The notes: generated from the letters alone by a model not told the origin. Shown: positions 2,006 through 55,758, counted from the first letter of the stretch. The stretch is DNA of 64,000 nucleotides from Rhizobium sp. Q54 (GCA_945861615.1 CAMAVH010000001.1:15585-79584); one strand, 5' to 3'. Made by a program: numbers and translations.

Positions 2006-2284
2006 ATGAGCAAATCAGCCGAACGCAGCGACAGCCAGACGCCGCATCCGCATCGTCCGACCTTGCCGCAGCGCAACTGGCTGGTGCGCGGGCTCGATCA
2101 GCCGGGCGGCAAGTTGCCGCTGTTCGATCGCGATGGCCAGCGCATCGACACCCAGACGGTGCGCAGCTGCCTACAGGCCGGCTGGGCCGAGCCCTGGTTC
2201 AACAATCCGCTCAAGCCCGATTGGCTGGTCTGCAAAATCACCGACAAGGGCCGCAAAGCGCTGGTCGACAACGACGCGCCCTAA
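2006..2284 (+). CDS. Small hypothetical protein (92 aa) immediately upstream of the T1SS operon
   Basis: Good RBS (GGGGGAGAAAC-ATG), a coherent non-repetitive protein (MSKSAERSDSQTPHPHRPTLPQRNWLVRGLDQPGGKLPLFDRDGQRID...) and the same strand as the downstream operon. No recognisable family. Confidence 0.5.
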   Translation: MSKSAERSDSQTPHPHRPTLPQRNWLVRGLDQPGGKLPLFDRDGQRIDTQTVRSCLQAGWAEPWFNNPLKPDWLVCKITDKGRKALVDNDAP

Positions 2285-2326
2285 GGCGCAACCATCCAGA
2301 CGCTTCCATCCTCATACGATCGCATG

Positions 2327-2434
2327 TGGTCAATTGTGAACATCGGTTCACGTTAATGCCACATCGTTGCCGCTCGCCTGCTTAAGTTCCTGATGACACA
2401 AAGAGTTCCGGGAACCATTGGTCAATATTGACCA
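2327..2434 (+). promoter_or_regulatory. Candidate operator/promoter region of the T1SS operon: half-site TGGTCAAT (2327-2334), inverted repeat GTGAAC-N4-GTTCAC (2336-2351) and perfect 16-bp palindrome TGGTCAATATTGACCA (2419-2434)
   Basis: Read directly from the sequence. The region is relatively AT-rich, about 90-200 bp upstream of the TTG start at 2524, and is followed by a strong RBS GAGGAGG. Confidence 0.35.
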
Positions 2435-2523
2435 TGTCAGGAATATCTTCTGCATTGCCATAAGTGTTCCACCCCGTATAAGACGAAAGTAATAGCACTT
2501 TCTACTTATCGAGGAGGACGGCA

Positions 2524-4740
2524 TTGAGCGCAGTAGCCTCTCACGATCGCCAGACGGCGGCTGATCGCATTATCGAGTTCCCGATTCCGACCTCGATTGA
2601 CTGCCTGGCCGTGGCCGCCCGGCATTTCGGCGTTCACATCTCTGCGACCGCCTTTGTCAAAGATCATGCCCTGACGCAGGGCGAAGAGAATGGCGCGGCG
2701 CTCACCGCCCTCGCGCAAAAGATCGGCCTGGATGCGGCGGCTGTCGTTCCCGCCGACTGCAACCCCGCCGAGCTGGCGAAGGCCCTGCCCGCAATCCTAC
2801 GCTTGCGCAACGGCAACGCCATGCTGTTGCTCGAACTGACGCGGATCGCCGAGGGCTTCAGCGCGAAGCTCTACGACCCGACGGTCGGCGAAGCCGCCCC
2901 CTTGATCATCGACTGGGAGCGTCTCTGCGGCGCGAGCGAGGAAATTCTTCTGCTCAAGCGCGACGCCGCCAACGCCGATGAAACGGCGGAACGCGATTTC
3001 GGCATCGGTCAAGTGGTCGCCGAGGTTCGCAACGAGAAGCGCCTGTTTCGCGACATTGCCCTCGCCGCCGTGCTGATGAGCTTGACCGCGCTGGCCCCCG
3101 CGCTGTTCTGGCAACTCGTCGTCGACCGCGTGCTGGTTTACAAGAGCCTCTCGACCCTGCATGTGCTGGTCGGCGGACTGGTCTTTATCGTCCTGTTCGA
3201 TACGCTGTTCGGCTATCTGCGCCGCAGCCTGATCCTAGTCGCCACGTCACGTATCGACGCGCGGCTGTCTTCATTCATTTTCAGCCGCCTGCTCGATCTC
3301 GGCATCGATTATTTCGAACGCGCGCAGACTGGCGTCGTCGTGCGCGACGTCAATGAAGTTTGGCGCGTGCGCAATTTCCTTACCGGCCAGTTGTTCGGCA
3401 CCGTGCTCGACGCCGTCGTGCTCGTCGTCGTCCTGCCGGTGATGTTCTGGTTCAACCCGATCCTCGCCGGCGTCGTTCTCGCCATCGGCGCGCTGATGAT
3501 CCTGGCGATCCTCGCCTTCCTGCCCTTCGTGCGCCGCCGTACGGGACGCGCCTTCGAGGCCGAAGGCCGGCAAAACGCCTATCTCGTCGAATCGGTGCAA
3601 GGAATACGTACGGTCAAATCGATGGCCATGGAACGCCAACGCCGCCGCGTCTGGGACCGCCATGTGGCCGACGCGGCGCGTCTGCGCCGCGATGCGGGCG
3701 GCATCATCAACGCCCTGCAAACCGTCGTCACGCCGTTCGAGAAGATGATGACCAGCGGCGTCATCGCTCTCGCCGCCTACATGGCCGTCACCAGCAACGA
3801 TCCGGTCTATGTCGGCACGCTCATCGCCTTCGGCATGCTGACACAGCGCGTCGCCCAACCGCTGATCCAGCTCGCCTATCTCGTGCAGCAGTTCGACGAG
3901 GTCGGCCGCGCGCTGCGCACCGTCGCCGGCGTGGTCAACCAGCCACGCGAGGAAGGCCGAGGCAATGGCGGCTTGTCCACGCGAATTAAAGGCGCGGTGG
4001 AATTTTCCAACGTGCGCTTTCGCTATCCCGGCGCCGCCGCCTGCGCCCTCGACGGCGTTTCCTTCAAGGCCGAAGCCGGCAGCATCTTCGGCATCATGGG
4101 CCGCAGCGGCTCGGGCAAGACCACGGTCACCCGCCTGCTGCAAAGCCTGCATCGCAGCTACGATGGCCTGATCAAGATCGACGGCACCGACATCCGCGCC
4201 ATCGACCTCGACCATCTGCGCCGCAGCACCGGCGTCGTGCTGCAGGATAGCTTCCTATTCTCCGGCACGATCCGCGACAACATCGCCGCCGGCGCGCCCG
4301 GCGCCAGTTTCGAGCAGGTCGTCGCCGCCGCCCGTCTCGCCGGTGCCGAGGAGTTCATCGAACGGCTGCCGCGCGGCTACGATACCCATGTCGAAGAAGG
4401 CGCTTCGAACCTGTCCGGCGGCCAGAAACAGCGGCTCGCCATCGCCCGCGCCCTCATCGTCGATCCCGGTTTGCTGATTCTCGACGAAGCGACCAGCGCG
4501 CTCGATCCCGAGAGCGAGGCGATCATTAACGCGAACCTGCAGCGCATCGCCGCCGGGCGCACCGTCATCGTCATTTCGCACCGGCTCTCGTCCCTGGTCG
4601 GGGCCGATGCCATCCTCGCCCTGGAAAACGGCGCCGTCGTCGGCCTCGGGCCGCACGCGCAACTGCTGCAGCGCTGCGACATCTATCAGCGTATGTGGCG
4701 CCAGCAGAACGGCCACTGGCTGGCGGGAGCCGCCGAATGA
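2524..4740 (+). CDS. Type I secretion system ATPase/permease (HlyB family ABC transporter with an N-terminal C39-like peptidase domain)
   Basis: 738 aa. It has an N-terminal C39-like domain (…TSIDCLAVAARHFG…), a six-TM permease core and an ABC ATPase with Walker A GRSGSGKTT, signature LSGGQKQR and Walker B LLILDEATSALD. TTG start after GAGGAGG. Its stop overlaps the downstream HlyD start (ATGA). Confidence 0.9.
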   Translation: MSAVASHDRQTAADRIIEFPIPTSIDCLAVAARHFGVHISATAFVKDHALTQGEENGAALTALAQKIGLDAAAVVPADCNPAELAKALPAILRLRNGNAMLLLELTRIAEGFSAKLYDPTVGEAAPLIIDWERLCGASEEILLLKRDAANADETAERDFGIGQVVAEVRNEKRLFRDIALAAVLMSLTALAPALFWQLVVDRVLVYKSLSTLHVLVGGLVFIVLFDTLFGYLRRSLILVATSRIDARLSSFIFSRLLDLGIDYFERAQTGVVVRDVNEVWRVRNFLTGQLFGTVLDAVVLVVVLPVMFWFNPILAGVVLAIGALMILAILAFLPFVRRRTGRAFEAEGRQNAYLVESVQGIRTVKSMAMERQRRRVWDRHVADAARLRRDAGGIINALQTVVTPFEKMMTSGVIALAAYMAVTSNDPVYVGTLIAFGMLTQRVAQPLIQLAYLVQQFDEVGRALRTVAGVVNQPREEGRGNGGLSTRIKGAVEFSNVRFRYPGAAACALDGVSFKAEAGSIFGIMGRSGSGKTTVTRLLQSLHRSYDGLIKIDGTDIRAIDLDHLRRSTGVVLQDSFLFSGTIRDNIAAGAPGASFEQVVAAARLAGAEEFIERLPRGYDTHVEEGASNLSGGQKQRLAIARALIVDPGLLILDEATSALDPESEAIINANLQRIAAGRTVIVISHRLSSLVGADAILALENGAVVGLGPHAQLLQRCDIYQRMWRQQNGHWLAGAAE

Positions 4741-6059
4741 GCCCCCCCAAGAATCCCCTGCTCGCCCGCTTCTCCTCCGAAGTCGAAGCGCTGTCCGCCG
4801 AACGCGAGCCCCGGGCGGCCCGCGCCACCTTGCTCATAGCCGCCGCAACGATCGTCGTCGCGATCGGTCTCGCCTCGCAGGCACGCATCGATCGCATCGT
4901 CACTGGCAGCGGCCAACTCACGACCCAGGAGCGCACCGTCGTCGTCGGTTCGCTCAACCGCGCCATCATCAAATCGATCGAGGTTCGCGAAGGCGACCAA
5001 GTCGCCGCCGGCCAGATTCTGACGACGCTCGATCCCACCTTCGCCCTGGCCGACGTCGCCCAACTCGAAGTCCAACTCCAAAGTCTGGACGCCGAGATCG
5101 CCCGCCTCGATGCCGAGTTGGCGGACCGGCCGCTCGACACCAACCGCCTGAGCGCAAGCTACGCCGCCCTGCAGGCCAGCCTAATGGCCCAGCGGCTCAG
5201 CGAACGGACGGAAAAGTTGCGCGGTTTCGACGCCAAGATCGCCCAGCAGGAATCCACCATCATCAAGCTCACGGCCAACCGGCAACGTTACGACGAGCGC
5301 GGCAAGCTGATGCGTGAGGTCGAAGATATGCGCCGCAAGCTGGCCGAACAGCAGGTCGGTAGCCGCCTCATGCTGTTGCAGGCAATGGACCAGCGGCTTG
5401 AGGTTTTGCGCAATGCCGACTTCGACGCCAACAGCCTGGAAGAGGCTCGCCACCTGCGCGACAGCTTGCGCTCAGACCGCGAAACATTCCTGGAGCAATG
5501 GCGCACCCAGGCGCAGCTCGACCTGATCAAGAACAGCACGACGCGCGATTCGACTCTCGAACAGCTGACCAAGGCGCAGAAGAACCAGGATCTCGTCACC
5601 CTGCGCGCGCCCTCCGACGGCATCGTCCAGCAGATCGGCAAGTTTTCCGTCGGCTCGGTGCTGACCGAAGGCGTGCCGCTCGTCACTCTGGTGCCGCTCA
5701 ACGCCAAGATGGAAACGGAAGTGTCCATCGACGCACGCGACGTCGGCTTCGTGCGCCCGGGCGATCCGGTGACGCTCAAGCTCGCCGCTTACGACTTTCT
5801 CGAGCACGGCCATGTCGAAGGCACCGTCCGTACCATCAGCGAAGATGCCTTCAGCCAACAAAGCGGCCAGCCGATCCGCCCGTTCTACAAGGCGACCATC
5901 ACCATCGACCGCACGGCGCTGCGCAACGTGCCCGATAGCTTCCGTCTGAACCCCGGCATGCCGGTAACCGCGGATGTGAAGGTTGGCACGCGCAGCCTGC
6001 TGTCCTATCTCGTGCGCGGCGCGCTCCGCACCGCCGACGAAGCGATGCGCGAGCCATGA
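4737..6059 (+). CDS. HlyD-family type I secretion periplasmic adaptor (membrane fusion protein)
   Basis: Single N-terminal TM (ATLLIAAATIVVAIGLA), a long coiled-coil (LEVQLQSLDAEIARLDAEL…) and a C-terminal beta-barrel/lipoyl region (LVTLRAPSDGIVQQIGKFSVGSVL…PGMPVTADVKV), the typical HlyD/PrsE architecture. Translationally coupled on both sides. Confidence 0.9.
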   Translation: MSPPKNPLLARFSSEVEALSAEREPRAARATLLIAAATIVVAIGLASQARIDRIVTGSGQLTTQERTVVVGSLNRAIIKSIEVREGDQVAAGQILTTLDPTFALADVAQLEVQLQSLDAEIARLDAELADRPLDTNRLSASYAALQASLMAQRLSERTEKLRGFDAKIAQQESTIIKLTANRQRYDERGKLMREVEDMRRKLAEQQVGSRLMLLQAMDQRLEVLRNADFDANSLEEARHLRDSLRSDRETFLEQWRTQAQLDLIKNSTTRDSTLEQLTKAQKNQDLVTLRAPSDGIVQQIGKFSVGSVLTEGVPLVTLVPLNAKMETEVSIDARDVGFVRPGDPVTLKLAAYDFLEHGHVEGTVRTISEDAFSQQSGQPIRPFYKATITIDRTALRNVPDSFRLNPGMPVTADVKVGTRSLLSYLVRGALRTADEAMREP

Positions 6060-6856
6060 TCGGAGACCTCCTCTCGCGCCTTTGCGCAAAGCTGATCGCG
6101 CGTTCGGGTTTTCCGCTCGAACGCTTGCGCCGAGCCGCCGAGCGTGGCGACGCACATGCGCAATATAATCTTGGCCAAGCCTATCTGATAGGCCACGTGG
6201 TCGCCGCCGCGCCGCGCAGCGCCGTCAACTGGCTCGAACTCGCCGCCCGGCAAGGGCATGTCGAAGCGCAACATAGCCTGAGCCTGATCTATCTTCATGG
6301 CGCGCGCGCCGGCGGCGCAGCCGCCACTTGGTTCGCCGAGGCGGAGCGAAGCGATGCCGCGCGCATCAACGCCGAATTGCTTTATCCCGACGGCCTCGCC
6401 ATTGCGGCCATGCCGGAACGGGCTTTCGCCCTCGCCACGGCGGCGGCCCTGCGGGGCCATGCGGCGGCGCAGGCCAATCTCGGCATGCTGTTCCTGCGCG
6501 GCGTCGGTTGCGCTCAAGATTTTTCCGCCGCCGCGGTTTGGTTTCGCCGCGCCGCCGAACAAGGCGACGCCGGCGGGGCGCTCGGCCTCGGCTTAATTTA
6601 CGAGCATGGCTTCGAGCGCGCCGCGGACGCCGCCGAAGCCGCACGCTGGTATGCCATCGCGGCAGAGGCCGGCAACGACGCCGCCGCCACCGCGCTCGGC
6701 ATCCTCCATTTGAACGCCCCGATGAACGGCGGGGGCGTCACGCACGACATCGCCAAGGCCGAACGCCTGCTGCATGGCCCTGCCGCGCGCGGCAATCCCT
6801 TCGCCCAGAAAGCCCTTCAATCCTTGCGCAACAACCAGCCGACGACGGCCGCCTGA
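6056..6856 (+). CDS. Sel1-like (TPR-family) repeat protein, co-operonic with the T1SS
   Basis: 266 aa with about six repeats of the form A(x)AQxxLGxxYxxGxGV (AHAQYNLGQAYLIGH, VEAQHSLSLIYLHG, AAAQANLGMLFLRGVG, AGGALGLGLIYEHGFE…). No obvious signal peptide. Its start ATGA-overlaps the HlyD stop. Confidence 0.8.
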   Translation: MIGDLLSRLCAKLIARSGFPLERLRRAAERGDAHAQYNLGQAYLIGHVVAAAPRSAVNWLELAARQGHVEAQHSLSLIYLHGARAGGAAATWFAEAERSDAARINAELLYPDGLAIAAMPERAFALATAAALRGHAAAQANLGMLFLRGVGCAQDFSAAAVWFRRAAEQGDAGGALGLGLIYEHGFERAADAAEAARWYAIAAEAGNDAAATALGILHLNAPMNGGGVTHDIAKAERLLHGPAARGNPFAQKALQSLRNNQPTTAA

Positions 6857-6899
6857 GCCCGGCCCGTCACGCCTTTCAATTCAAATAGAAAGTAGTTCA

Positions 6900-8639
6900 A
6901 TGGCCTTGAATGATATGCGTTTGACCTTCCGCGACGAGTTCAACAGCCTCAGCCTCGACACCGGTACCGCCGCGACCGATCCCAAATTTTGGAACAGCTC
7001 GATGCACAACGGCTATGTGCGATCGCTTTCCGGCAACAAGGAGCTGCAGATCTATGCGGACCCAGACTACAAGGGGCTCGGCGTCAATCCCTTCTCGGTC
7101 AACGACGGGATTTTGAGCATCAAGGCGGCGCCCGCCTCCACCGCCGTCAAGAATGCCACCGGATATGGTTATACCTCGGGTGTCCTCACCTCGCAGGGCG
7201 CCTTCTCGCAGCAATACGGTTACTTCGAAGTCCGTGCGCAGGTTCCCGAGGGCCAGGGTCTATGGCCCGCCTTCTGGCTGCTCAACGACGACGAGAACTG
7301 GCCGCCCGAACTCGACGTCATGGAAGTGATCGGCAGCGAAACGAAAGTCCTGCATCAATCCGTGCATACTGACCATCCCGACACCACCAAGGTGACCTAT
7401 CTCCCCGAGAAGCTGTCGGCCGGCTTTCACACCTATGGCATGGACTGGACGAAGAGCAACATTACCTTCTATCTCGACGGCAAGGTGACGGGAACCGTCG
7501 CCACGCCCAGCGATATTCACGGCTCGATGTACATGGTGCTCAACCTGGCCGTCGGCGGCACCTGGCCCGGCTCGCCCAATGCCGCGACCAATTTCGCCAC
7601 CGCCAAGCTGAACGTCGATTACGTCCGCGTTTACCAGCATGGCGGTTCGGGCGGCGTGCTTCCGGTCGGCGGATCGACGACCACTCCGGCGCCGACCACG
7701 CCGGCCCCGACCACCCCAACGCCGGCCCCGCAAGCCGGCCTCGTGATGCCCACGTTCAATTCGCAAACGGCCCTGCCGAGCGCGCTGCTCGCGCCGGATG
7801 CCGCCTTCAAATCCTGGCCGCCCGCTCATGTGAAGATCAGCAACGGCGGCACCGTGTCTGTCGCGGACGGATCGAGCGTCCGGCTATTCGAACATGCCGC
7901 CGGCACGAGCAAGACCTATGGGGCGAGCCAGCTCAAGCTCCAAGGCACGCCCGACGGCGCGAGCGTCAGCGCGAGCTACGACGCCAAGAAGAATATCACC
8001 GTCGTCAACAATGGCGCGTGGGGCGGCATCGACAATGCCGCGGTGCGCTCAGGCGTGATGAGCGTCATGACCGTGAAGAACTTCGCCGGCGTCGAAATCG
8101 ACAATGGCCGGTCGCAGGGTGCGACCGTGAATGTCTCCGACGTCATGCGCGGCTCAATCGCCACGAGTGGCGGTAACGACAGCCTACAGATCACCGGAAA
8201 AAGCAATGCCACCAGCGGCAACCTGTTGACCATCTCCGCCGGGAACGGCAACAACAGCGTTAACTATAGCGGCGGCGCGAGCAATCGGGCGGCGATCATT
8301 ACCGGCTCGGGCGCCGACACTGTCACCTTCGGCGGTCAGGCCAACGGAGCGATCAATACCGGAGCCGGCAATGATCGCGTGAACGTCCGCTCCACCGGCA
8401 ACGTTGCCGTCACCGGCGGCGCCGGCGCGGATATCTTCTCTTTCATCGCCGGGGCCCATGCCACCATCGCCGACTTCAAGGCAGGCGAGGACCGCGTCGA
8501 GTTTTCCGGAGTCAGCGCCGCCAATGTGCAAGTGCGCAGCAACGGCAGCAGCACGCTGATCGACCTCAATGGCAATAGCGCCGTCGTGCTCTCCGGCGTC
8601 ACCTTGAGCGCGAGCCAACTGAACCTGAGCTACGCCTAA
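6900..8639 (+). CDS. Secreted glycoside hydrolase family 16 glycanase with C-terminal RTX-like calcium-binding repeats (T1SS substrate; ExsH/PlyA-like)
   Basis: The N-terminal GH16 domain carries the catalytic motif E-L-D-V-M-E (WPPELDVMEVIG). It has a Pro/Thr linker (TTTPAPTTPAPTTPTPAP). The C-terminal half has GGxGxD-type nonapeptides (GGAGADIFSF, GAGNDRVNV, SGGNDSLQI). There is no N-terminal signal peptide, which is typical of T1SS cargo. The start is taken at ATG 6900 (MALNDMRLTF); the upstream extension of the ORF overlaps the Sel1 gene. Confidence 0.85.
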   Translation: MALNDMRLTFRDEFNSLSLDTGTAATDPKFWNSSMHNGYVRSLSGNKELQIYADPDYKGLGVNPFSVNDGILSIKAAPASTAVKNATGYGYTSGVLTSQGAFSQQYGYFEVRAQVPEGQGLWPAFWLLNDDENWPPELDVMEVIGSETKVLHQSVHTDHPDTTKVTYLPEKLSAGFHTYGMDWTKSNITFYLDGKVTGTVATPSDIHGSMYMVLNLAVGGTWPGSPNAATNFATAKLNVDYVRVYQHGGSGGVLPVGGSTTTPAPTTPAPTTPTPAPQAGLVMPTFNSQTALPSALLAPDAAFKSWPPAHVKISNGGTVSVADGSSVRLFEHAAGTSKTYGASQLKLQGTPDGASVSASYDAKKNITVVNNGAWGGIDNAAVRSGVMSVMTVKNFAGVEIDNGRSQGATVNVSDVMRGSIATSGGNDSLQITGKSNATSGNLLTISAGNGNNSVNYSGGASNRAAIITGSGADTVTFGGQANGAINTGAGNDRVNVRSTGNVAVTGGAGADIFSFIAGAHATIADFKAGEDRVEFSGVSAANVQVRSNGSSTLIDLNGNSAVVLSGVTLSASQLNLSYA

Positions 8640-8649
8640 GCCTATCGAG

Positions 8650-8677
8650 GGGCGGGCCGATGGGCCCGCCCCTCGCG
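8650..8677 (+). terminator. GC-rich stem-loop between the two glycanase paralogs (GAGGGGCGGGCC-gatg-GGCCCGCCCCTC)
   Basis: A perfect 12-bp inverted repeat directly after the stop at 8639. It has no T-tract, so it may act as an attenuator or mRNA-stability element rather than a full terminator. Confidence 0.4.
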
Positions 8678-8723
8678 CGTGCCGGCAATCTGCTTCCATC
8701 AACGCCAATCCCGGGGGGATATC

Positions 8724-11252
8724 ATGGCACTCGACGATCTGCGCCTGTCGTTCCGCGACGAATTCAGCAGCCTCAGCCTCGACACCGGCACCGCCGCGAC
8801 CGCACCGAACTTCTGGAACAGCTCCATGCATTCGGGTCATGTTCGCAACTTGGCGAACAATGGCGAATTGCAAATTTACGCCGACGCCGACTACCTCGGC
8901 CTTGGCGTCACACCCTTCTCGGTCAACAACGGCATCCTGACCATCAAGGCCGCGCCCGCCTCGTCCAGCGTCCAGACGGCGACCGGTTACAACTACACCT
9001 CCGGCGTCCTCACTTCGCAGGGCGCCTTTTCGCAGGCCTACGGCTATTTCGAAGTTCGCGCGCAGCTGCCCGAGGGCAAGGGGCTGTGGCCGGCCTTCTG
9101 GCTGCTCAACGAGAACGAGCAATGGCCGCCCGAACTCGACATCATGGAAGTGATCGGCAGCGAGACCAACTGGCTTACGCAGACGATCCACACCGACACG
9201 GGCAACGCCACCAGCGGCAATACCTGGAGCATCGACAAGCTCTCGGCCGGCTATCACAGCTACGGCATGGATTGGACCCAGAGCCAGATCACCTTCTATC
9301 TTGACGGCAAGCAGACTTGGTCGATGGCGACGCCGTCGGACCTCAACACGCCGATGTATATGGTGCTCAACCTGGCGGTCGGCGGCAATTGGCCGGGTAC
9401 GCCGGACGCGACCACCAACTGGGCGAACGCCAAGTACAACATCGACTATGTGCGCGTGTACCAGCATACCGGCACGCCCGGCATCGGCGGCGTGCTTAAC
9501 CCGGATGGTTCGGTCTATGTGCCGCCACCCGTCGCTCAGCTGCCCGGCCTCATCATCAGCAACGGCGCCGATATCACCGGCATGACCGGCACGAAGTTCG
9601 CCGTACCGGACGCGGGGCCCGGCACGACCAGGACCTACACGGCCAGCCAGATCGCCCTCGGGACCGCCGGCGGCGCAACGCTGACGGTGCTCCGAGATGG
9701 ACAGAACAATATCGCCGCCAGCAACAACGGCGCCTGGAACGATATCAAAAACGCCGCTTACGCCTCCGACAGCGTCAAGGGCGTGACGTTGAACAATTTC
9801 GTCGGGATCGGCATCTGGATGAACGGCGATCAGGATTCCGTCGTCGCCGTCAACAACAGCAAGCGCGGCACGATCACCACGACCGGCGGCCACGACCGGA
9901 TCACCGTCGCGGCCTTCAGCAACGGCATCACCGACAATATCATCGCGATCGATAGCGGCGACGGCAACGATATCATCGCCTTCACCGGCGCCGCCAACAC
10001 GCGAACGGACATCGCCGCCGGCGGCGGTGACGATACCGTCACCTTTTCCGATCAGGCTTCCGGCAGCGCCAAGGGCGGCGGGGGCGACGACAGCTTCATC
10101 ATCCGGTCCGGCGGCACGATCAGCCTGAACGGTGGCGCCGGCATCGACAGCTACGACCTCGCCGCAGGCAATCGGGTCACTATCGCCGACTTCCGGCTCG
10201 GCGAGGACAGGCTGACCTTGAACGGCGTCGCTGCCAGCGCCATCACCGTCCGCAACGCCGGCGGCAACAGCTATGTCGATGTCAATGGGACCGCCACCGC
10301 GACGCTGACCGGCGTGAACCTGAACAGCATCGATCTCGGCTTCGTCGCAGCGCCCGTCGTCATCCCTGTGTTCGACTGCAAAACGATCATGCCGAGCGCG
10401 CTGCTGATGCCGGATTCTTCCTTCAAAAACTGGCCGATCACCCATGCCAAGCTGAGCAACGGCGCGGACATCTCGGTCGCCGGCGGCAGCAGCTTCGCCG
10501 CCCCGGAAAGCGGCGCCAGCACGTCGAAAAGCTATACGGCGAGCCAGATCGGCCTCGGCACGGCCGCCGGCACCACCGTTACCCTCGCCTACGATGCGCA
10601 GAAAAACATCACGGTCACGAACAATGGCGCCTGGGGCGGCGTCAAGAACGCCGCGTTGCGTTCCGGCGCCATGACCAAGATGACGGTCAGCAACTTCATG
10701 GGCGTCGACATCGACATGAACGCCAACCAGAGCGGCACGGTGACGATCGCAGACGTGATGCGCGGCTCGGTCGCGACCGGCGGGGGAAACGACGTGATTA
10801 ACGTCACCGGCAAGAGCGACGGCGGTGCCGCCAACCTGATGAGCATCTCGGCGGGCAACGGCACCAATACCGTCAGCTATAGCGGCACGAGCGGCAACCG
10901 CGCGGCGATCATCACGGGCGGCGGCGCCGACAGGATCAGCTTCGCCGGCCAAGCCGATGGCGCGATCAATGTCGGGGCAGGCAACGACCGGGTGGACGTC
11001 CGCTCGACCGGCACTGTCGCCGTCACCGGCGGCGCCGGGTCGGATATCTTCTCCTTCATCGCCGGGGCCCATGCCAGCATCGCCGACTTCAACGCCGGCG
11101 AGGATCGGATCGAATTTTCCGGCGTCAGCGCCGCCAACGTCCGGATCCGGACCGACGGCAGCAGCACCCTGATCGACCTCAACGGCACGAGCGCCGTGGT
11201 GCTCTCGGGCGTCGCCCTCGGCGCCGGCCAGATCAACCTGAGCTACGTTTAG
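8724..11252 (+). CDS. Secreted GH16 glycanase paralog with two tandem C-terminal RTX-like/beta-roll modules (T1SS substrate)
   Basis: 842 aa. The N-terminal GH16 domain is about 70% identical to the upstream paralog (same ELDIMEV catalytic motif). It is followed by two roughly 265-aa modules that each resemble the C-terminal half of the first glycanase. The last about 100 aa are nearly identical to the paralog (…GGAGSDIFSFIAGAHASIADFNAGEDRIEFSGVSAANVRIRTDGSSTLIDLNGTSAVVLSGV…LSYV). Start at ATG 8724 after GGGGGA. Confidence 0.85.
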   Translation: MALDDLRLSFRDEFSSLSLDTGTAATAPNFWNSSMHSGHVRNLANNGELQIYADADYLGLGVTPFSVNNGILTIKAAPASSSVQTATGYNYTSGVLTSQGAFSQAYGYFEVRAQLPEGKGLWPAFWLLNENEQWPPELDIMEVIGSETNWLTQTIHTDTGNATSGNTWSIDKLSAGYHSYGMDWTQSQITFYLDGKQTWSMATPSDLNTPMYMVLNLAVGGNWPGTPDATTNWANAKYNIDYVRVYQHTGTPGIGGVLNPDGSVYVPPPVAQLPGLIISNGADITGMTGTKFAVPDAGPGTTRTYTASQIALGTAGGATLTVLRDGQNNIAASNNGAWNDIKNAAYASDSVKGVTLNNFVGIGIWMNGDQDSVVAVNNSKRGTITTTGGHDRITVAAFSNGITDNIIAIDSGDGNDIIAFTGAANTRTDIAAGGGDDTVTFSDQASGSAKGGGGDDSFIIRSGGTISLNGGAGIDSYDLAAGNRVTIADFRLGEDRLTLNGVAASAITVRNAGGNSYVDVNGTATATLTGVNLNSIDLGFVAAPVVIPVFDCKTIMPSALLMPDSSFKNWPITHAKLSNGADISVAGGSSFAAPESGASTSKSYTASQIGLGTAAGTTVTLAYDAQKNITVTNNGAWGGVKNAALRSGAMTKMTVSNFMGVDIDMNANQSGTVTIADVMRGSVATGGGNDVINVTGKSDGGAANLMSISAGNGTNTVSYSGTSGNRAAIITGGGADRISFAGQADGAINVGAGNDRVDVRSTGTVAVTGGAGSDIFSFIAGAHASIADFNAGEDRIEFSGVSAANVRIRTDGSSTLIDLNGTSAVVLSGVALGAGQINLSYV

Positions 11253-11417
11253 GCGAGAGGGCCCGGTCTTATTCAAGACTGGGCCCTCCCCTTCCCTGCG
11301 TTGCCCATATCCTCCGCGCCCTGTAAAACGGAAGCGCGCCCATAAAAACAAAGCGGGGCGCGCCTGCCGCCCTGCGGTTTCTAGGGCAGCATGCAAAACA
11401 GATCAGGGAGACGGCCC

Positions 11418-13579: not shown

Positions 13580-13657
13580 TGGTCGGGACGATAGGATTTG
13601 AACCTACGACCCTCAGACCCCCAGTCTGATGCGCTACCAGGCTGCGCTACGCCCCGA
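13580..13657 (-). tRNA. tRNA-Pro (anticodon GGG)
   Basis: The reverse complement folds as a cloverleaf. The acceptor arm CGGGGCG/CGUCCCG includes one G-U pair. The D-arm is GCGC-AGCCUGGUA-GCGC. The anticodon arm is UCAGA-CUGGGGG-UCUGA, which gives anticodon GGG. The T-arm is GUAGG-UUCAAAU-CCUAU. The CCA end is encoded. Confidence 0.85.
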
Positions 13658-17284: not shown

Positions 17285-17854
17285 TCATTTGCCGCCTTTT
17301 CTTACCAGCCTTGCGAGGGCCATGAAAGGCGAATTCTTCGGGACGGAAGTCTTTGATTCCGCAGGACTTGGCAGTTCCTCCGCCGGCTCGCCCGGCAAAC
17401 GGGCGCCCGGCAGGCGAGGATAGGGGTTCAAAGCCAGGGCCAGATGCTCGGCGGCCGCCTCTCCCACGTCCACCGCCTCGCCGTCCAGCGGGTCCGGCGG
17501 GTCGGCCGCCTCGGGGTCCAATTCCAGCTCTTTTTCGATCACGGCGGCGGTCGCATCGTCGGCATAGTCCAAGGCGAAGTCTTCACCGATCACGTCGGGC
17601 ACCGGCTCGAGGGTCACGACGCAGCGCTGCACCAGCTTGGCGGCAATATGGCCACGCAGCTGGGCGCGCCGGCCACCATTGAGGGTCGTCAACGTCCCTT
17701 CGGCGGTGAAACTATCGAGCGCGATCAGGCCGAAACGCTTGGCCAGGGCGGCCCGCTCGGCGGCCGTCGCCTCGATTTTGAAGGCCTGCACCGGCTCGAC
17801 GCCCCGATGCACGGGCAACTTGCGGGAAAATTCCGGCGGCAAATCGCTGGTCAT
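17285..17854 (-). CDS. yceD: YceD/DUF177 family protein (23S rRNA accumulation protein)
   Basis: 189 aa with an acidic C-terminus, located upstream of rpmF-plsX-fabH, the conserved yceD position. Confidence 0.8.
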   Translation of the reverse strand: MTSDLPPEFSRKLPVHRGVEPVQAFKIEATAAERAALAKRFGLIALDSFTAEGTLTTLNGGRRAQLRGHIAAKLVQRCVVTLEPVPDVIGEDFALDYADDATAAVIEKELELDPEAADPPDPLDGEAVDVGEAAAEHLALALNPYPRLPGARLPGEPAEELPSPAESKTSVPKNSPFMALARLVRKGGK

Positions 17855-17881
17855 GAGGGACTCCGTAAACGGCCAGTGGAT

Positions 17882-18421
17882 TCAGGCAGCCAAGGCGGGC
17901 GGCGGCACGAAGCGCAGCTCGCCGGCCGCCAAATCCGCCAGGGACTGGGCGCTGAGCACCGCGTCGGCCTGCCGCAGATAGCGCGCCAGGGCGGCCACGG
18001 CCTCCGGCGGCGCCGCCACGTCTTCATAAACGTTGCGCGCCAGGGCCTCTTCCAGGCGGCCCGCCGGACCGGTCAGACCGTCCTCATAGGCCGCGACCCG
18101 GCCATAGAAGGATTTGGCCAGCTTCTTGATCCGTTTGCCGACGGCCAGATCGCCAGTGCCGAGTTCGCGCAGATTGCGGTCCATGTCGGCGAACATCAAA
18201 TCGAACAGATCTTGGGCCAGCGCGCCGGCCGCCCCACCCGTCTTGAGCCGGCGCATGACCAGGAAAGCATGCAGCGCGATCATCTCGAAACGTCCCTGCA
18301 CGCTGTCCGGCACGGCGCAAACCGTATAGAAGCCCGGCAAGCGCGCCTGGGCGACCAGCCGGCCATAGAGGGCAGCAGCCGGATCGGCGCGGAACTGGCG
18401 AAAGAGGCGATTGAAGATCAT
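17882..18421 (-). CDS. Ubiquinol-cytochrome c chaperone (Cbp3-like) family protein
   Basis: MIFNRLFRQFRADPAAALYGRLVAQARLPGFYT…FEMIALHAFLVMRRL…DLFDLMFADMDRNLRELG, a typical Ubiq_cyt_C_chap domain. Start taken at the internal ATG 18421. Confidence 0.7.
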   Translation of the reverse strand: MIFNRLFRQFRADPAAALYGRLVAQARLPGFYTVCAVPDSVQGRFEMIALHAFLVMRRLKTGGAAGALAQDLFDLMFADMDRNLRELGTGDLAVGKRIKKLAKSFYGRVAAYEDGLTGPAGRLEEALARNVYEDVAAPPEAVAALARYLRQADAVLSAQSLADLAAGELRFVPPPALAA

Positions 18422-18566
18422 GATGCGCGCGTGGCCTATAACTATGGGAACAAAGCGTGATTGACAGCCGGCCAAGGCCGGTGCGACTGTCCGCCCGTGG
18501 CGCGCAACATGGAGATTTTCCTGCCGCCCGTCAACCGCCAGAGACTGAAGCGGTTAGTGAGGTTAA

Positions 18567-54723: not shown

Positions 54724-55758
54724 TTACTCGACGAGCGCCTTGGCCCGCGCCACTAGCGGCGCCGGCGTGGCGATCAGCTTGGCGGCCAGGGTCTGCATCG
54801 ATTCGCCGGCGATCGGCGAAATCTCGACCTTCAGCTTGCCGGCCTCGCCGAGCAGTTCGGGATCCTTGGTCATCGCCACGAAGGCCGCGCGCATCGCCTT
54901 GACGCGGTCGGCCGGCACGCCCGGACCCATGGCGAAGGGCCGGCCGAACTCGGCGCCGGAGAAGACCAAGTTCATCACCTGGATATCGTCGGGATTTTTC
55001 ACCAGCTCGGCCATCGACGGCACGCCGTCCGGCATGTCCTTGGGCTTGGGGCCGGCGTACATCAGCACGACGAACTGGCCGTTCTTGATCCAATCCATGC
55101 GCGAGGTCACCCAACTCGCCCAGCTGGTGGCGCGCGCGCCGACTTCGCCGCGCTCCATGGCGGTGTTCATGTCCGGCGAGCCGCTGTAGCCGGTGATGAC
55201 CTTGAACTTGGTGCCGAGCAGCGCGTTCATCGTTTCCGCGATATAGCTCGAATTTGCGCCCTTGCCGGTGGCCGCGGCGGCGATGGTCTTCTTTTTGGCG
55301 TCCTCGATCGTCTTGACGTTCTCAGTGTGCCAGACGCCCATCGATTCGACGGCGGGCGATAAGGAGCCGACCCACTGGAACTTCGAGGCGTCGAACTGCA
55401 CGCCTTGCGCGCGGATGGCGTGAACCATGGCGACGGAGTTCATCAACAAACCGAGATTGCTGCCGTCTTGCGGAAGGCTGTTGTAGATCGCGTTGGCGAC
55501 GCGGATGCCGCCGGCGCCGGGCATATTCTGCGGCACGACGCGCGGGGCGCCGGGCAGGTGCTTGCCGATATGGCGACCGACGAGACGACCTTCGAAGTCG
55601 TAGCCGCTGCCTGCCGCCGTGGCGATCATCACGTTGACGGTGGCGCTTTTATAGAAGTCGGCTGCCGATTGCGCGAGCGCCGGCACCGGCGCGGCGAGCG
55701 GCGCGACGGCGCATGCCGTGGCAAAAAGGGCCGTTTTGAAAGAAATACGAGAGGTCAT
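54724..55758 (-). CDS. Orphan tripartite tricarboxylate transporter substrate-binding protein (TctC/Bug family)
   Basis: Signal peptide plus SAADFYKSATVNVMIATAAGSGYDFEGRLVGRHIGKHLPG…NMPGAGGIRVANAIY…DG(S/Y)…L, the Bug-family N-terminal consensus. It is paralogous to the tctC at the window end. Confidence 0.75.
   Translation of the reverse strand: MTSRISFKTALFATACAVAPLAAPVPALAQSAADFYKSATVNVMIATAAGSGYDFEGRLVGRHIGKHLPGAPRVVPQNMPGAGGIRVANAIYNSLPQDGSNLGLLMNSVAMVHAIRAQGVQFDASKFQWVGSLSPAVESMGVWHTENVKTIEDAKKKTIAAAATGKGANSSYIAETMNALLGTKFKVITGYSGSPDMNTAMERGEVGARATSWASWVTSRMDWIKNGQFVVLMYAGPKPKDMPDGVPSMAELVKNPDDIQVMNLVFSGAEFGRPFAMGPGVPADRVKAMRAAFVAMTKDPELLGEAGKLKVEISPIAGESMQTLAAKLIATPAPLVARAKALVE

What the first reader, a model, noticed from the sequence alone, without database searches (positions are those of the whole stretch)
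2006..11252. Self-contained type I secretion cassette: HlyB-type ABC transporter, HlyD adaptor, a Sel1-repeat protein and two tandem GH16-RTX glycanase cargos
Five co-directional genes are translationally coupled or separated by at most about 85 bp: the ABC transporter, the HlyD adaptor (ATGA overlap), the Sel1 protein (ATGA overlap), glycanase 1 (43-bp gap) and glycanase 2 (84-bp gap containing a GC hairpin). Both cargos have no signal peptide. Each has a GH16 catalytic domain (E-L-D-[VI]-M-E), a Pro/Thr linker and a C-terminal GGxGxD beta-roll. The general logic is known from rhizobial PrsDE secreting the EPS glycanases ExsH and PlyA/PlyB. This locus differs in two ways. It inserts a roughly 29-kDa cytoplasmic-looking Sel1/TPR-like protein between the adaptor and the cargos; its size class is ExoR-like but it has no signal peptide. 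It also carries an HlyB-type rather than a PrsD/AprD-type transporter, with an N-terminal peptidase-like domain. The locus sits between core genes (cutA; OCD-family/slyX) with no EPS-biosynthesis genes in the window. It is therefore an accessory secretion module whose substrate glycan and Sel1 function are unknown. The Sel1 protein could be a secretion chaperone or holdase for the very long, repeat-rich cargos, or a regulator. An outer-membrane TolC-type component is not encoded locally.
Basis: partly seen in the sequence, partly recalled or inferred. Interest (0 to 1): 0.75.

Follow-up and report, generated by a model that had tools for sequence, protein, structure and literature searches.

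The report
Type I secretion cassette with Sel1 partner
This is a real five-gene secretion cassette that most likely exports two sugar-cutting enzymes, and its small Sel1-repeat gene proves to be a fixed but unstudied partner of this transporter type in about 70 other bacterial genomes.

Summary
The cassette is real, with corrections. The ABC gene starts at 2524 (TTG, strong ribosome-binding site), not 2006. The stretch 2006-2284 is a separate 92-aa core gene outside the cassette. The ATGA overlaps, the 43-bp and 84-bp gaps and the hairpin are exact. Both cargos pass the GH16 model and carry the E-L-D-[VI]-M-E motif. They fail the RTX model PF00353 (11.5 bits; cut-off 23). However, a confident model of the C-terminal module (pLDDT 92) matches only RTX beta-roll secretion substrates, and more distant homologues carry PF00353. 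The transporter is HlyB-like, with an N-terminal C39-like domain lacking the catalytic Cys and His. The main new result concerns Sel1. In 71 of 77 informative related loci (Alpha- and Gammaproteobacteria, Acidobacteria), a Sel1-repeat gene directly follows the HlyD gene, and none occurs elsewhere in 1.55 Mb of flanks. Those proteins are usually 450-900 aa and lack signal peptides. The 266-aa window form matches their N-terminal ~230 residues. GH16 cargo occurs only in the closest lineage, which is Rhodospirillales-like, not Hyphomicrobiales. I found no paper describing such a third component. Its role as a cytoplasmic adaptor or holdase is inferred, not shown.

The parts
2336..2351 (.). Perfect palindrome GTGAAC-ATCG-GTTCAC in the GC-poorer gap upstream of the ABC gene. 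Candidate operator (putative).
   Evidence: Sequence read. The equivalent GTGAGC-N5-GCTCAC occurs at the same place in orthologous loci L003 and L007. No function tested.
2468..2518 (+). 5' leader hairpin that pairs UUCCaCCcCG with the ribosome-binding site GAGGAGGA of the ABC gene. It contains an inner AT-rich hairpin at 2478-2509. Possible translational control element (putative).
   Evidence: window -17.2 kcal/mol (z -1.96), L003 -24.2 (z -3.5), L007 -16.2 (z -1.75). The sequence is conserved. No Rfam family matches.
2524..4740 (+). ABC exporter, 738 aa, HlyB-like. It has an N-terminal C39-like domain (about aa 20-150) without the catalytic Cys or His, then a transmembrane domain and a nucleotide-binding domain.
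   Evidence: PF00664 109.7 bits and PF00005 110.2 bits. TIGR01846 HlyB 566 bits, aligned over residues 25-729, below its cut-off of 725. E. coli HlyB 7sgr 402 bits; PCAT1 4ry2 aligned over residues 27-729. The catalytic positions are T/S and S/T/G/N/A across 78 relatives. The source assembly calls the same 738-aa gene.
4737..6059 (+). HlyD-family periplasmic adaptor (membrane fusion protein), 440 aa. Its start overlaps the ABC stop as ATGA.
   Evidence: TIGR01843 322 bits, above its cut-off of 208.65. PF13437 58.8 bits. Junction read.
6056..6856 (+). Sel1-repeat protein, 266 aa, 27.7 kDa, pI 7.9, no signal peptide or transmembrane segment. Its start overlaps the HlyD stop as ATGA. It is the conserved third gene of this transporter clade.
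   Evidence: PF08238 74.4 bits. Junction read. Model with pLDDT 91 and 15 helices; the N-terminal helix 2-16 has low confidence. It has the Sel1-repeat fold. 71 of 77 informative loci carry a Sel1 ORF directly after HlyD. 41 further metagenomic proteins (P0002-P0042) are 47-79% identical.
6900..8639 (+). GH16 glycanase 1, 579 aa, pI 5.6, no Cys, no signal peptide. GH16 domain about 6900-7680, Pro/Thr linker about 7683-7772, C-terminal beta-helix/beta-roll module 7773-8636.
   Evidence: PF00722 89.9 bits. NF052454 EglC 242 bits, below its cut-off of 700. Closest solved structures are laminarinases 4dfs and 3azx, about 119 bits. The C-terminal model has pLDDT 92 and pTM 0.90 and is all-beta. The top 45 ranked Foldseek hits (E below 1) are RTX beta-roll proteins or domains, most of them known T1SS substrates.
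8647..8674 (+). 12-bp GC hairpin between the two glycanase genes. It has no T tract, so it is not a canonical intrinsic terminator.
   Evidence: The terminator scan did not pick it up.
8724..11252 (+). GH16 glycanase 2, 842 aa, pI 4.5. GH16 domain about 8724-9509, then two tandem copies of the beta-roll module (about 9540-10376 and 10377-11249).
   Evidence: PF00722 87.5 bits. The two modules are 38% and 50% identical to the GH16-1 module. The single GH16 of sister cassettes L001/L003 (848-866 aa) is its orthologue at 70-71%.
11257..11288 (+). 14-bp hairpin just after the last gene. Likely end of the operon.
   Evidence: -30.2 kcal/mol, z -4.36, 0 of 200 shuffles fold as well.

Best explanation
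Window 2524-11252 is a type I secretion operon.

Shown by models and sequence:
- an HlyB-like ABC exporter whose N-terminal C39-like domain has lost the catalytic Cys and His;
- a HlyD adaptor;
- a Sel1-repeat protein;
- two GH16 endo-beta-glycanases of the laminarinase/ExsH-EglC type.
The glycanases have no signal peptide. They end in one (GH16-1) or two (GH16-2) modules of about 290 aa, predicted to fold as a beta-helix plus an RTX-type beta-roll.

Inferred from established T1SS knowledge:
- the glycanases stay unfolded in the Ca-poor cytoplasm;
- they are recognised through the degenerate repeats and the C-terminal end;
- they are threaded through ABC/HlyD and an unlinked TolC-type channel;
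- they fold on binding Ca2+ outside, and cut a beta-glucan or the cell's own exopolysaccharide.

Inferred from comparative genomics:
- The Sel1 protein is not a local add-on. It is the ancestral, co-inherited third cytoplasmic component of this transporter clade.
- I think it most likely acts as an adaptor or holdase. It would sit at the cytoplasmic face of the transporter, possibly through its conserved N-terminal helix, and hold or present substrates on its solenoid surface.
- The window lineage keeps only the N-terminal third of the ancestral long protein.

My confidence is about 0.85 that this is a T1SS with GH16 cargo. It is about 0.45 that Sel1 is a cytoplasmic accessory of the machine rather than cargo or regulator.
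For: Transporter and adaptor:
- Family scores and ATGA coupling.
- The N-terminal domain lacks Cys and His in 78 relatives. This is the class linked to RTX cargo in the review PMC8277102.

Cargo:
- GH16 model and motif.
- No signal peptide, acidic, 0-1 Cys.
- Confident beta-roll model whose PDB matches are the PML lipase, PrtC, AprA, serralysin, AlgE6 R-modules and CyaA block V.
- More distant GH16 homologues carry PF00353 or PF08548.
- Precedent: PrsDE secretes the glycanases PlyA/PlyB, with ExsH in S. meliloti (PMC2275737).

Sel1 as part of the machine:
- 71 of 77 loci have it directly after HlyD on the same strand, and 0 Sel1 hits occur elsewhere in 1.55 Mb.
- The gene start often overlaps the HlyD stop.
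- No signal peptide or transmembrane segment in 77 proteins.
- Its identity falls in step with ABC and HlyD: Sel1 62 to 32%, HlyD 79 to 36%, ABC 76 to 46%.
- The short form matches the N-terminal ~230 aa of the long forms at 100-146 bits, against 20-50 bits for other repeats.
- A recurring N-terminal pattern (roughly M-x-x-L-L-x-R-L) runs across phyla, as read by eye from the alignment. That helix is modelled at low confidence, so it may be free.
- pI is 7.9 with 2 Cys, and the family median pI is 6.3, unlike typical acidic T1SS cargo.
- The triad stands without GH16 in most loci, so Sel1 is not cargo-specific.
Against: - No experiment or complex prediction ties Sel1 to the transporter or to the cargo.
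- PF00353 is not met, and exact GGxGxD motifs are few.
- No outer-membrane channel is seen in the 64 kb.
- ABC scores are below the curated cut-offs of every NCBIfam T1SS model.
- In the wider clade the triad usually sits among glycosyltransferases, not next to obvious RTX cargo. This leaves room for a role tied to glycan synthesis.
- 6 of 77 loci lack the Sel1 gene in that position.
- The substrate glycan is unknown.
Confidence: 0.6

Rival explanations
1. The Sel1-repeat protein is itself the ancestral secreted substrate of this transporter clade (gene order ABC-MFP-substrate). In the window lineage it persists as a shortened cargo beside the newer GH16 cargos.
For: - It is the only gene always linked to ABC-HlyD.
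- It has no signal peptide, as expected for T1SS cargo.
- Most loci show no other obvious cargo within 10 kb.
- Repeat number varies widely, from 252 to 907 aa, as is common for surface or secreted repeat proteins.
Against: - It has no RTX or beta-roll element, although the transporter has the C39-like domain class associated with RTX cargo.
- pI is near neutral and it contains Cys.
- An alpha-solenoid should fold readily in the cytoplasm, whereas T1SS needs unfolded cargo (established knowledge; HasA needs SecB).
- The conserved part is the N-terminus, not the C-terminus where T1SS signals lie.
- Its start codon often overlaps the HlyD stop codon (ATGA). I read this coupling as typical of machine subunits rather than cargo (inference).
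Confidence: 0.17
2. The Sel1 protein links the exporter to glycan metabolism. It could be a scaffold or activator for the neighbouring glycosyltransferases, or a regulator or cytoplasmic inhibitor of the exported enzymes. It would not be a secretion adaptor.
For: - In the wider clade the triad lies among TPR-GT2-GT4 fusion proteins, GT4 (PF12000), WbsX-type glycosyltransferases and an epimerase.
- Sel1-repeat proteins serve as scaffolds in polysaccharide export (AlgK) and as immunity proteins (PA5086-5088). Both appear among the structural matches.
- Here the cargo is glycan-active.
Against: - The window and its sister loci have no glycosyltransferase nearby, yet they keep Sel1.
- Its position and coupling are with HlyD, not with the glycosyltransferases.
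- Sel1 is present whether or not GH16 is present, so it is not a GH16-specific inhibitor.
- It has no DNA-binding or signalling domain.
Confidence: 0.15
3. The ABC-HlyD-Sel1 triad exports a non-protein substrate (polysaccharide or glycolipid). The GH16 proteins are merely neighbours that leave the cell another way.
For: - ABC scores are below all curated T1SS cut-offs, and HepA-type and glucan-exporter models also score (301 and 268 bits).
- The wider clade has glycosyltransferase-rich surroundings.
Against: - HlyB and LssB models score far higher, 566 and 471 bits.
- A C39-like domain is a feature of peptide and protein exporters.
- HlyD passes the T1SS adaptor cut-off.
- The GH16 proteins have no signal peptide and do have a beta-roll fold. 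They lie in the same tightly packed co-directional cluster, within 43-84 bp.
Confidence: 0.06

Closest known systems
E. coli HlyB/HlyD/TolC haemolysin T1SS (the class of transporters with a C39-like domain)
   Same: - ABC exporter with an N-terminal C39-like domain lacking the catalytic Cys.
- HlyD adaptor.
- Cargo without a signal peptide and with a C-terminal Ca-binding beta-roll.
- Outer-membrane channel encoded elsewhere.
   Different: - A conserved cytoplasmic Sel1-repeat gene follows the adaptor gene; HlyBD has none.
- The C39-like domain has also lost the His, and is too diverged for PF03412 or for a significant PDB match (E 1.1).
- The cargo is an enzyme with degenerate repeats, not a pore-forming toxin.
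- There is no HlyC-type acyltransferase.
Rhizobial PrsDE with the glycanases ExsH, EglC and PlyA/PlyB
   Same: - A T1SS that exports glycanases acting on exopolysaccharide (PMC2275737).
- The GH16 domain here is most similar to the EglC model among the NCBIfam families (242 bits).
   Different: - The transporter is HlyB-like with an N-terminal domain, not PrtD/PrsD-like (TIGR01842 307 bits, cut-off 510).
- The GH16 domain is N-terminal here, whereas it matches the C-terminal half of the EglC model (positions 216-457 of 459).
- EglC equivalog membership is not met (cut-off 700).
- A Sel1 gene is present.
- No exopolysaccharide genes are nearby.
Serralysin/AprA proteases and family I.3 lipases (PML, LipA) as T1SS substrates
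   Same: An N-terminal enzyme domain plus a C-terminal beta-roll 'sandwich'. These are the best structural matches of the cargo C-terminal module.
   Different: - Their repeats are canonical GGxGxDxUx and pass PF00353; here only 1-3 exact motifs exist and PF00353 fails.
- TM-scores are only 0.3-0.38, because the module has an extra N-terminal beta part.
Adaptors built of Sel1 repeats: SEL1L/Hrd3 at the HRD1 retrotranslocon, and AlgK in alginate export
   Same: A Sel1-repeat solenoid acts as a partner of a membrane transport machine. Both appear among the fold matches of the Sel1 model.
   Different: - Those proteins sit in the ER lumen or the periplasm, with signal peptides or lipid anchors. 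This one has none and should be cytoplasmic.
- There is no sequence orthology.
- The analogy is functional only and is untested.
ExoR (periplasmic Sel1-repeat regulator of ChvG/ChvI)
   Same: Similar size and Sel1 repeats.
   Different: NF045484 scores 18.6 bits against a cut-off of 450. There is no signal peptide. It is not an ExoR family member.

Membership tests
Type I secretion system, HlyB class with C39-like domain | ABC exporter (transmembrane plus nucleotide-binding domains) with an N-terminal C39-like domain lacking the catalytic Cys | tested here: met
   PF00664 and PF00005. Full-length alignment to TIGR01846 (residues 25-729) and to PCAT1 4ry2 (residues 27-729). The Cys position is T/S in 54 of 78 relatives, and the His position is S/T/G/N/A. 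PF03412 itself gives no hit.
Type I secretion system, HlyB class with C39-like domain | Score at or above the curated cut-off of the HlyB subfamily model TIGR01846 | tested here: not met
   565.9 bits against a cut-off of 725.55. It is a diverged clade rather than a canonical HlyB.
Type I secretion system, HlyB class with C39-like domain | HlyD-family membrane fusion protein encoded next to the ABC gene | tested here: met
   TIGR01843 322 bits against a cut-off of 208.65. ATGA overlap with the ABC gene.
Type I secretion system, HlyB class with C39-like domain | TolC-type outer-membrane channel | tested here: not met
   None in the source's gene table for the first ~18.6 kb or among 30 larger ORFs of the rest. 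The channel is often unlinked, as with E. coli tolC. The rest of the genome could not be searched.
Type I secretion system, HlyB class with C39-like domain | Substrate with C-terminal RTX nonapeptide repeats (PF00353) and no N-terminal signal peptide | tested here: inconclusive
   PF00353 scores 11.5 bits against a cut-off of 23, with 1 and 3 exact GGxGxD motifs. However, the model has a beta-roll fold (pLDDT 92) that matches RTX proteins, and homologues carry PF00353. No signal peptide.
Type I secretion system, HlyB class with C39-like domain | ABC-dependent, one-step secretion of the substrate | not testable with these tools
   Needs a secretome comparison of wild type and an ABC/HlyD mutant, or heterologous reconstitution.
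Glycoside hydrolase family 16 | PF00722 above the gathering score, and the catalytic E-x-D-x-x-E motif | tested here: met
   89.9 and 87.5 bits against a cut-off of 22. ELDVME and ELDIME are present. Laminarinase structures 4dfs and 3azx score about 119 bits.
EglC/ExsH equivalog (NF052454) | Score at or above the curated cut-off, with the same domain order | tested here: not met
   242 and 229 bits against a cut-off of 700. Only model positions 216-457 are matched, and the domain order is reversed.
PrsD/PrtD-type T1SS ABC (TIGR01842) | Score at or above the cut-off, with no N-terminal extra domain | tested here: not met
   306.7 bits against a cut-off of 510.15. The match starts at residue 170, so an extra N-terminal domain is present.
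Sel1-repeat proteins | PF08238 repeats and an alpha-alpha solenoid fold | tested here: met
   74.4 bits against a cut-off of 30.7. The model has 15 helices and pLDDT 91. The top PDB matches are all Sel1-repeat proteins.
ExoR (NF045484) | Equivalog score and a periplasmic signal peptide | tested here: not met
   18.6 bits against a cut-off of 450. No hydrophobic N-terminal segment.

The most novel reading that the evidence does not exclude
This would be a distinct, widespread T1SS subtype that has a fourth, cytoplasmic component. A Sel1-repeat adaptor docks through its conserved N-terminal amphipathic helix onto the catalytically dead C39-like domain of the ABC exporter, re-using the old leader-peptide groove. 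Its solenoid holds unfolded cargo, or couples export to glycan-modifying enzymes. It would be the first dedicated chaperone or adaptor described for type I secretion.
Probability: 0.25. Interest if true: 0.8.

Novelty: new variant of a known kind. Interest (0 to 1): 0.62.

Why it matters
Type I secretion is usually described as a three-part machine (ABC, adaptor, TolC) with no dedicated cytoplasmic helper. SecB acting on HasA is the known exception, and a 2021 review of these systems does not mention Sel1 or TPR partners at all. A Sel1-repeat gene fixed next to the adaptor gene in about 70 genomes from three major groups points to an overlooked component. It also gives a clean way to test its role, because this lineage has a minimal 266-aa version with defined, assayable enzyme cargos. 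If the protein is an adaptor or holdase, it would bear on how degenerate C39-like domains are used. It could also help in engineering T1SS for enzyme secretion. If it turns out to be cargo or a regulator, the finding is a routine accessory glycanase secretion cassette.

Tried and rejected
- Small ORF 2006-2284 as part of the ABC gene or a sixth cassette gene: rejected. It has 4302 homologues. In Thalassobaculum and Oceanibaculum it sits in the same core synteny without the cassette.
- PF00353 on the cargo C-termini at E up to 10: only 11.5 bits.
- PF03412 (C39) on the ABC N-terminus: no hit.
- PDB sequence search with the ABC N-terminus: only 3b79 at E 1.1.
- Intrinsic terminator and sigma-70 promoter scan: neither GC hairpin qualifies, because they lack T tracts. 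The only promoter-like site (9949-9976) lies inside the GH16-2 gene, none lies upstream of the operon, and the count is at chance level.
- Rfam over the whole window: only one tRNA.
- Literature searches for a Sel1, TPR or accessory protein with T1SS: nothing relevant. A Pectobacterium paper mentions Sel1 only as T6SS immunity.
- Sel1 as ExoR, MerG, AlgK or MotX: all far below their cut-offs.
- 'Short Sel1 always goes with GH16': not strict. L012 has a short Sel1 and no GH16 downstream.
- Conserved fourth gene across the wider clade: none found beyond mixed glycosyltransferases.
- Complex prediction (Sel1 with the C39-like domain or with cargo): not possible with the tools offered.

Full report
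**1. What is in the sequence**

ORF listing and translation show co-directional genes on the + strand.
- A 92-aa ORF at 2006-2284.
- After a 239-bp GC-poorer gap, a 738-aa ORF at 2524-4740. It starts with TTG, six bases after a GAGGAGG ribosome-binding site.

The source assembly is an ENA metagenome contig of 86,415 bp. It carries the same gene calls: 92, 738, 440, 266, 579 and 842 aa.

- ATGA overlap at 4737-4740 and at 6056-6059.
- A 43-bp gap before GH16-1.
- An 84-bp gap before GH16-2.
- A 12-bp GC hairpin at 8647-8674 inside the 84-bp gap.
- A 14-bp hairpin at 11257-11288 after the last gene (z -4.4).

**2. Family assignments**

Pfam and NCBIfam results:

| Gene | Result |
|---|---|
| ABC | PF00664 + PF00005. 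Best NCBIfam model is HlyB TIGR01846: 566 bits over residues 25-729, below its cut-off of 725. PrtD model: 307 bits. |
| Adaptor | TIGR01843: 322 bits, above its cut-off of 208.65. |
| Sel1 | PF08238: 74 bits. ExoR, MerG, AlgK and MotX models all fall far below their cut-offs. |
| Both cargos | PF00722: about 88-90 bits. Best NCBIfam model is EglC: 242 and 229 bits, cut-off 700. |

- The closest solved GH16 structures are laminarinases.
- E. coli HlyB (7sgr) scores 402 bits against the ABC protein. PCAT1 aligns over the whole length, including the N-terminal domain.
- The N-terminal domain gives no PF03412 hit and only a marginal PDB hit.
- In an alignment of 78 relatives, the position of the C39 catalytic Cys is Thr or Ser, and the His position is Ser/Thr/Gly/Asn/Ala.
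- It is therefore a C39-like domain with both catalytic residues lost. The review PMC8277102 links this class to RTX cargo.

**3. The RTX claim**

- PF00353 fails: 11.5 bits, E 0.31, cut-off 23.
- Exact GGxGxD occurs once in GH16-1 and three times in GH16-2.
- I aligned the last 288 aa of GH16-1 with 57 homologues and predicted its structure. The result was pLDDT 92, pTM 0.90, all short beta strands.
- In the Foldseek search of the PDB, the top 45 ranked matches (E below 1) are all RTX beta-roll proteins or domains. Most are known T1SS substrates: PML lipase, PrtC, AprA, serralysin, AlgE6 R-modules and CyaA block V. Probability is about 1, and TM-scores are only 0.3-0.38.
- More distant GH16 homologues of the same architecture carry PF00353 or PF08548.
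- So the beta-roll is real at fold level, but its repeats are degenerate.
- GH16-2 carries two tandem copies of this module (38% and 50% identity to the GH16-1 module).
- The cargos are acidic (pI 5.6 and 4.5), have 0-1 Cys, and have no hydrophobic N-terminus.

**4. Boundaries and origin**

- The 92-aa ORF has 4302 homologues at 60-99% identity and no Pfam family.
- In Thalassobaculum and Oceanibaculum it sits in the same core neighbourhood (MFS ... small ORF ... MerR, HU/IHF, FabH, PlsX, YceD) with no secretion genes.
- In four related metagenomic genomes the cassette lies at the same place, between this ORF and slyX.
- The cassette is therefore a five-gene insertion into core DNA, inherited vertically within this lineage.
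- The rest of the window is housekeeping: H+-PPase, SHMT, RibD, ALAD, MotAB, ParC, RecO, Era, RelA/SpoT, DapA and others. There is no TolC, glycosyltransferase or polysaccharide exporter.
- The nearest transporter relatives are Stellaceae/Allostellaceae and Rhodospirillaceae MAGs and Azospirillum, which belong to Rhodospirillales, not Hyphomicrobiales.

**5. The Sel1 gene is a fixed partner of this transporter clade**

A scan of one genome per species with the ABC protein returned 80 loci at 45-70% identity. The loci come from:
- Alphaproteobacteria: Azospirillum, Nitrospirillum, Skermanella, Rhodopila, Acetobacteraceae, Methylobacterium, Lichenibacterium.
- Gammaproteobacteria: Solimonas, Hydrocarboniphaga, Steroidobacteraceae.
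- Acidobacteria: Terracidiphilus, Sulfotelmatobacter.

I searched all six-frame ORFs of these loci with the window proteins and counted:
- 77 loci have at least 900 bp after HlyD. Of these, 71 have a Sel1-repeat ORF directly downstream on the same strand.
- No Sel1 hit occurs anywhere else in 1.55 Mb of flanking DNA.

Further properties of these proteins:
- They are usually 450-900 aa and consist of Sel1 repeats throughout. The Azospirillum rugosum example has 12 repeats and 326 bits.
- None of 77 has a signal peptide or transmembrane segment.
- Many starts overlap the HlyD stop.
- Sel1 identity to the window protein falls in step with ABC and HlyD.
- The window's 266-aa protein matches the N-terminal ~230 residues of the long forms at 100-146 bits. 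Other repeats score 20-50 bits.
- Short forms (252-294 aa) occur only in the closest loci, L001-L012.
- A recurring N-terminal pattern, roughly M-x-x-L-L-x-R-L, runs across the whole clade, as read by eye from the alignment.
- In the predicted Sel1 structure (pLDDT 91, 15 helices), that first helix is the only low-confidence helix.
- Fold matches are generic Sel1-repeat proteins: EsiB, LceB, LpnE, SEL1L/Hrd3, AlgK and PA5086-5088.

**6. What varies**

- GH16 cargo is found only in the closest loci, L001-L011.
- Sister cassettes have one GH16 of 848-866 aa, orthologous to GH16-2 at 70-71%. GH16-1 is therefore a younger paralogue that lost one module.
- One MAG has two paralogous cassettes, plus extra proteins with the beta-roll module.
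- In the wider clade the triad sits among glycosyltransferases: TPR-GT2-GT4 fusions of about 1000 aa, GT4 PF12000 and WbsX. ChW-repeat proteins and an epimerase are also nearby.
- A few loci have ORFs with several GGxGxD motifs close by.

**7. Mechanism**

- Most likely the operon makes a T1SS that exports the two glycanases through an unlinked TolC-type channel, with Ca-driven folding of the beta-roll outside the cell. This rests on family knowledge and on the rhizobial PrsDE/PlyA/PlyB/ExsH precedent (PMC2275737).
- For Sel1, the comparative data show co-inheritance with the machine, not with any particular cargo. The data also point to a cytoplasmic location.
- I therefore favour an adaptor or holdase bound at the cytoplasmic face, about 0.45.
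- Rivals are: Sel1 as the ancestral cargo, about 0.17; a link to glycan synthesis or regulation, about 0.15; and a non-protein export role for the triad, about 0.06.
- Points against Sel1 as cargo are its near-neutral pI, its Cys content, the lack of any RTX element, conservation at the N-terminus rather than the C-terminus, and a fold that should form readily in the cytoplasm.

**8. Novelty**

- T1SS export of glycanases is known.
- Six literature searches and a large 2021 review turned up no Sel1 or TPR partner of a T1SS.
- No curated NCBIfam model is specific to this ABC or to this Sel1 protein.
- I rate it a new variant of a known kind: a T1SS subtype with a conserved cytoplasmic Sel1-repeat component, seen here in its smallest form with defined enzyme cargo.

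**9. Also seen**

Upstream of the ABC gene there are two conserved elements:
- A conserved palindrome at 2336-2351.
- A conserved leader hairpin at 2468-2518 that pairs with the ribosome-binding site.

No Rfam family matches either element.

Noticed in passing
window 2006-2284 (+): A 92-aa basic protein (pI 9.2) with no Pfam or NCBIfam family but 4302 homologues at 60-99% identity. It is a core alphaproteobacterial small gene at a conserved chromosomal site. Its function is unknown, and it is not part of the secretion cassette.
   Followed up: partly
window 2336-2351 and 2468-2518: A conserved palindrome GTGAAC-N4-GTTCAC, and a conserved 5' leader hairpin that masks the ribosome-binding site of the ABC gene. 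Both are shared with sister loci L003 and L007 and have no Rfam match. They may be operator and translational control elements.
   Followed up: partly
L013-L088 (for example L021 13661-15370; L066 9834-12851; L048 16288-21704): In the wider clade the ABC-HlyD-Sel1 triad is embedded among glycosyltransferases (TPR-GT2-GT4 fusions of about 1000 aa, GT4 PF12000, WbsX), ChW-repeat proteins and an epimerase. This hints at a link between this secretion subtype and surface-glycan synthesis or protein glycosylation.
   Followed up: partly
L006/L009 and L010 (both on contig CAVVYA010000002.1): One MAG carries two paralogous ABC-HlyD-short Sel1-GH16 cassettes about 237 kb apart. The first also has a 328-aa and a 980-aa protein with the beta-roll module but no GH16 domain, so the cargo set has diversified.
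   Followed up: no
L028, L035, L041, L050, L071 (downstream of HlyD): Six of 77 loci lack the Sel1 gene on the same strand directly after HlyD. L041 and L050 instead share an unrelated protein of about 345-365 aa (MGIFHKFSRLKDE...) with no assigned family. L035 has a 730-aa ORF. In L039, the sixth locus, a Sel1 gene lies next to HlyD but on the opposite strand.
   Followed up: no
window 6329-6430 (Sel1 residues 92-125): The short Sel1 family has a strictly conserved segment that does not look like a standard repeat. Its invariant residues are W92, N105, L108, P111 and G113 (W-x12-N-x2-L-x2-P-x-G). It could be a binding site.
   Followed up: no
window 13583-13656 (-): A tRNA gene (Rfam 62.8 bits) is the only Rfam match in the 64-kb window.
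   Followed up: no
window 17444-18460 (+) and 54724-55758 (-): Two ORFs of 338 and 344 aa have coding-like GC3 but no Pfam family at E below 1e-5.
   Followed up: no
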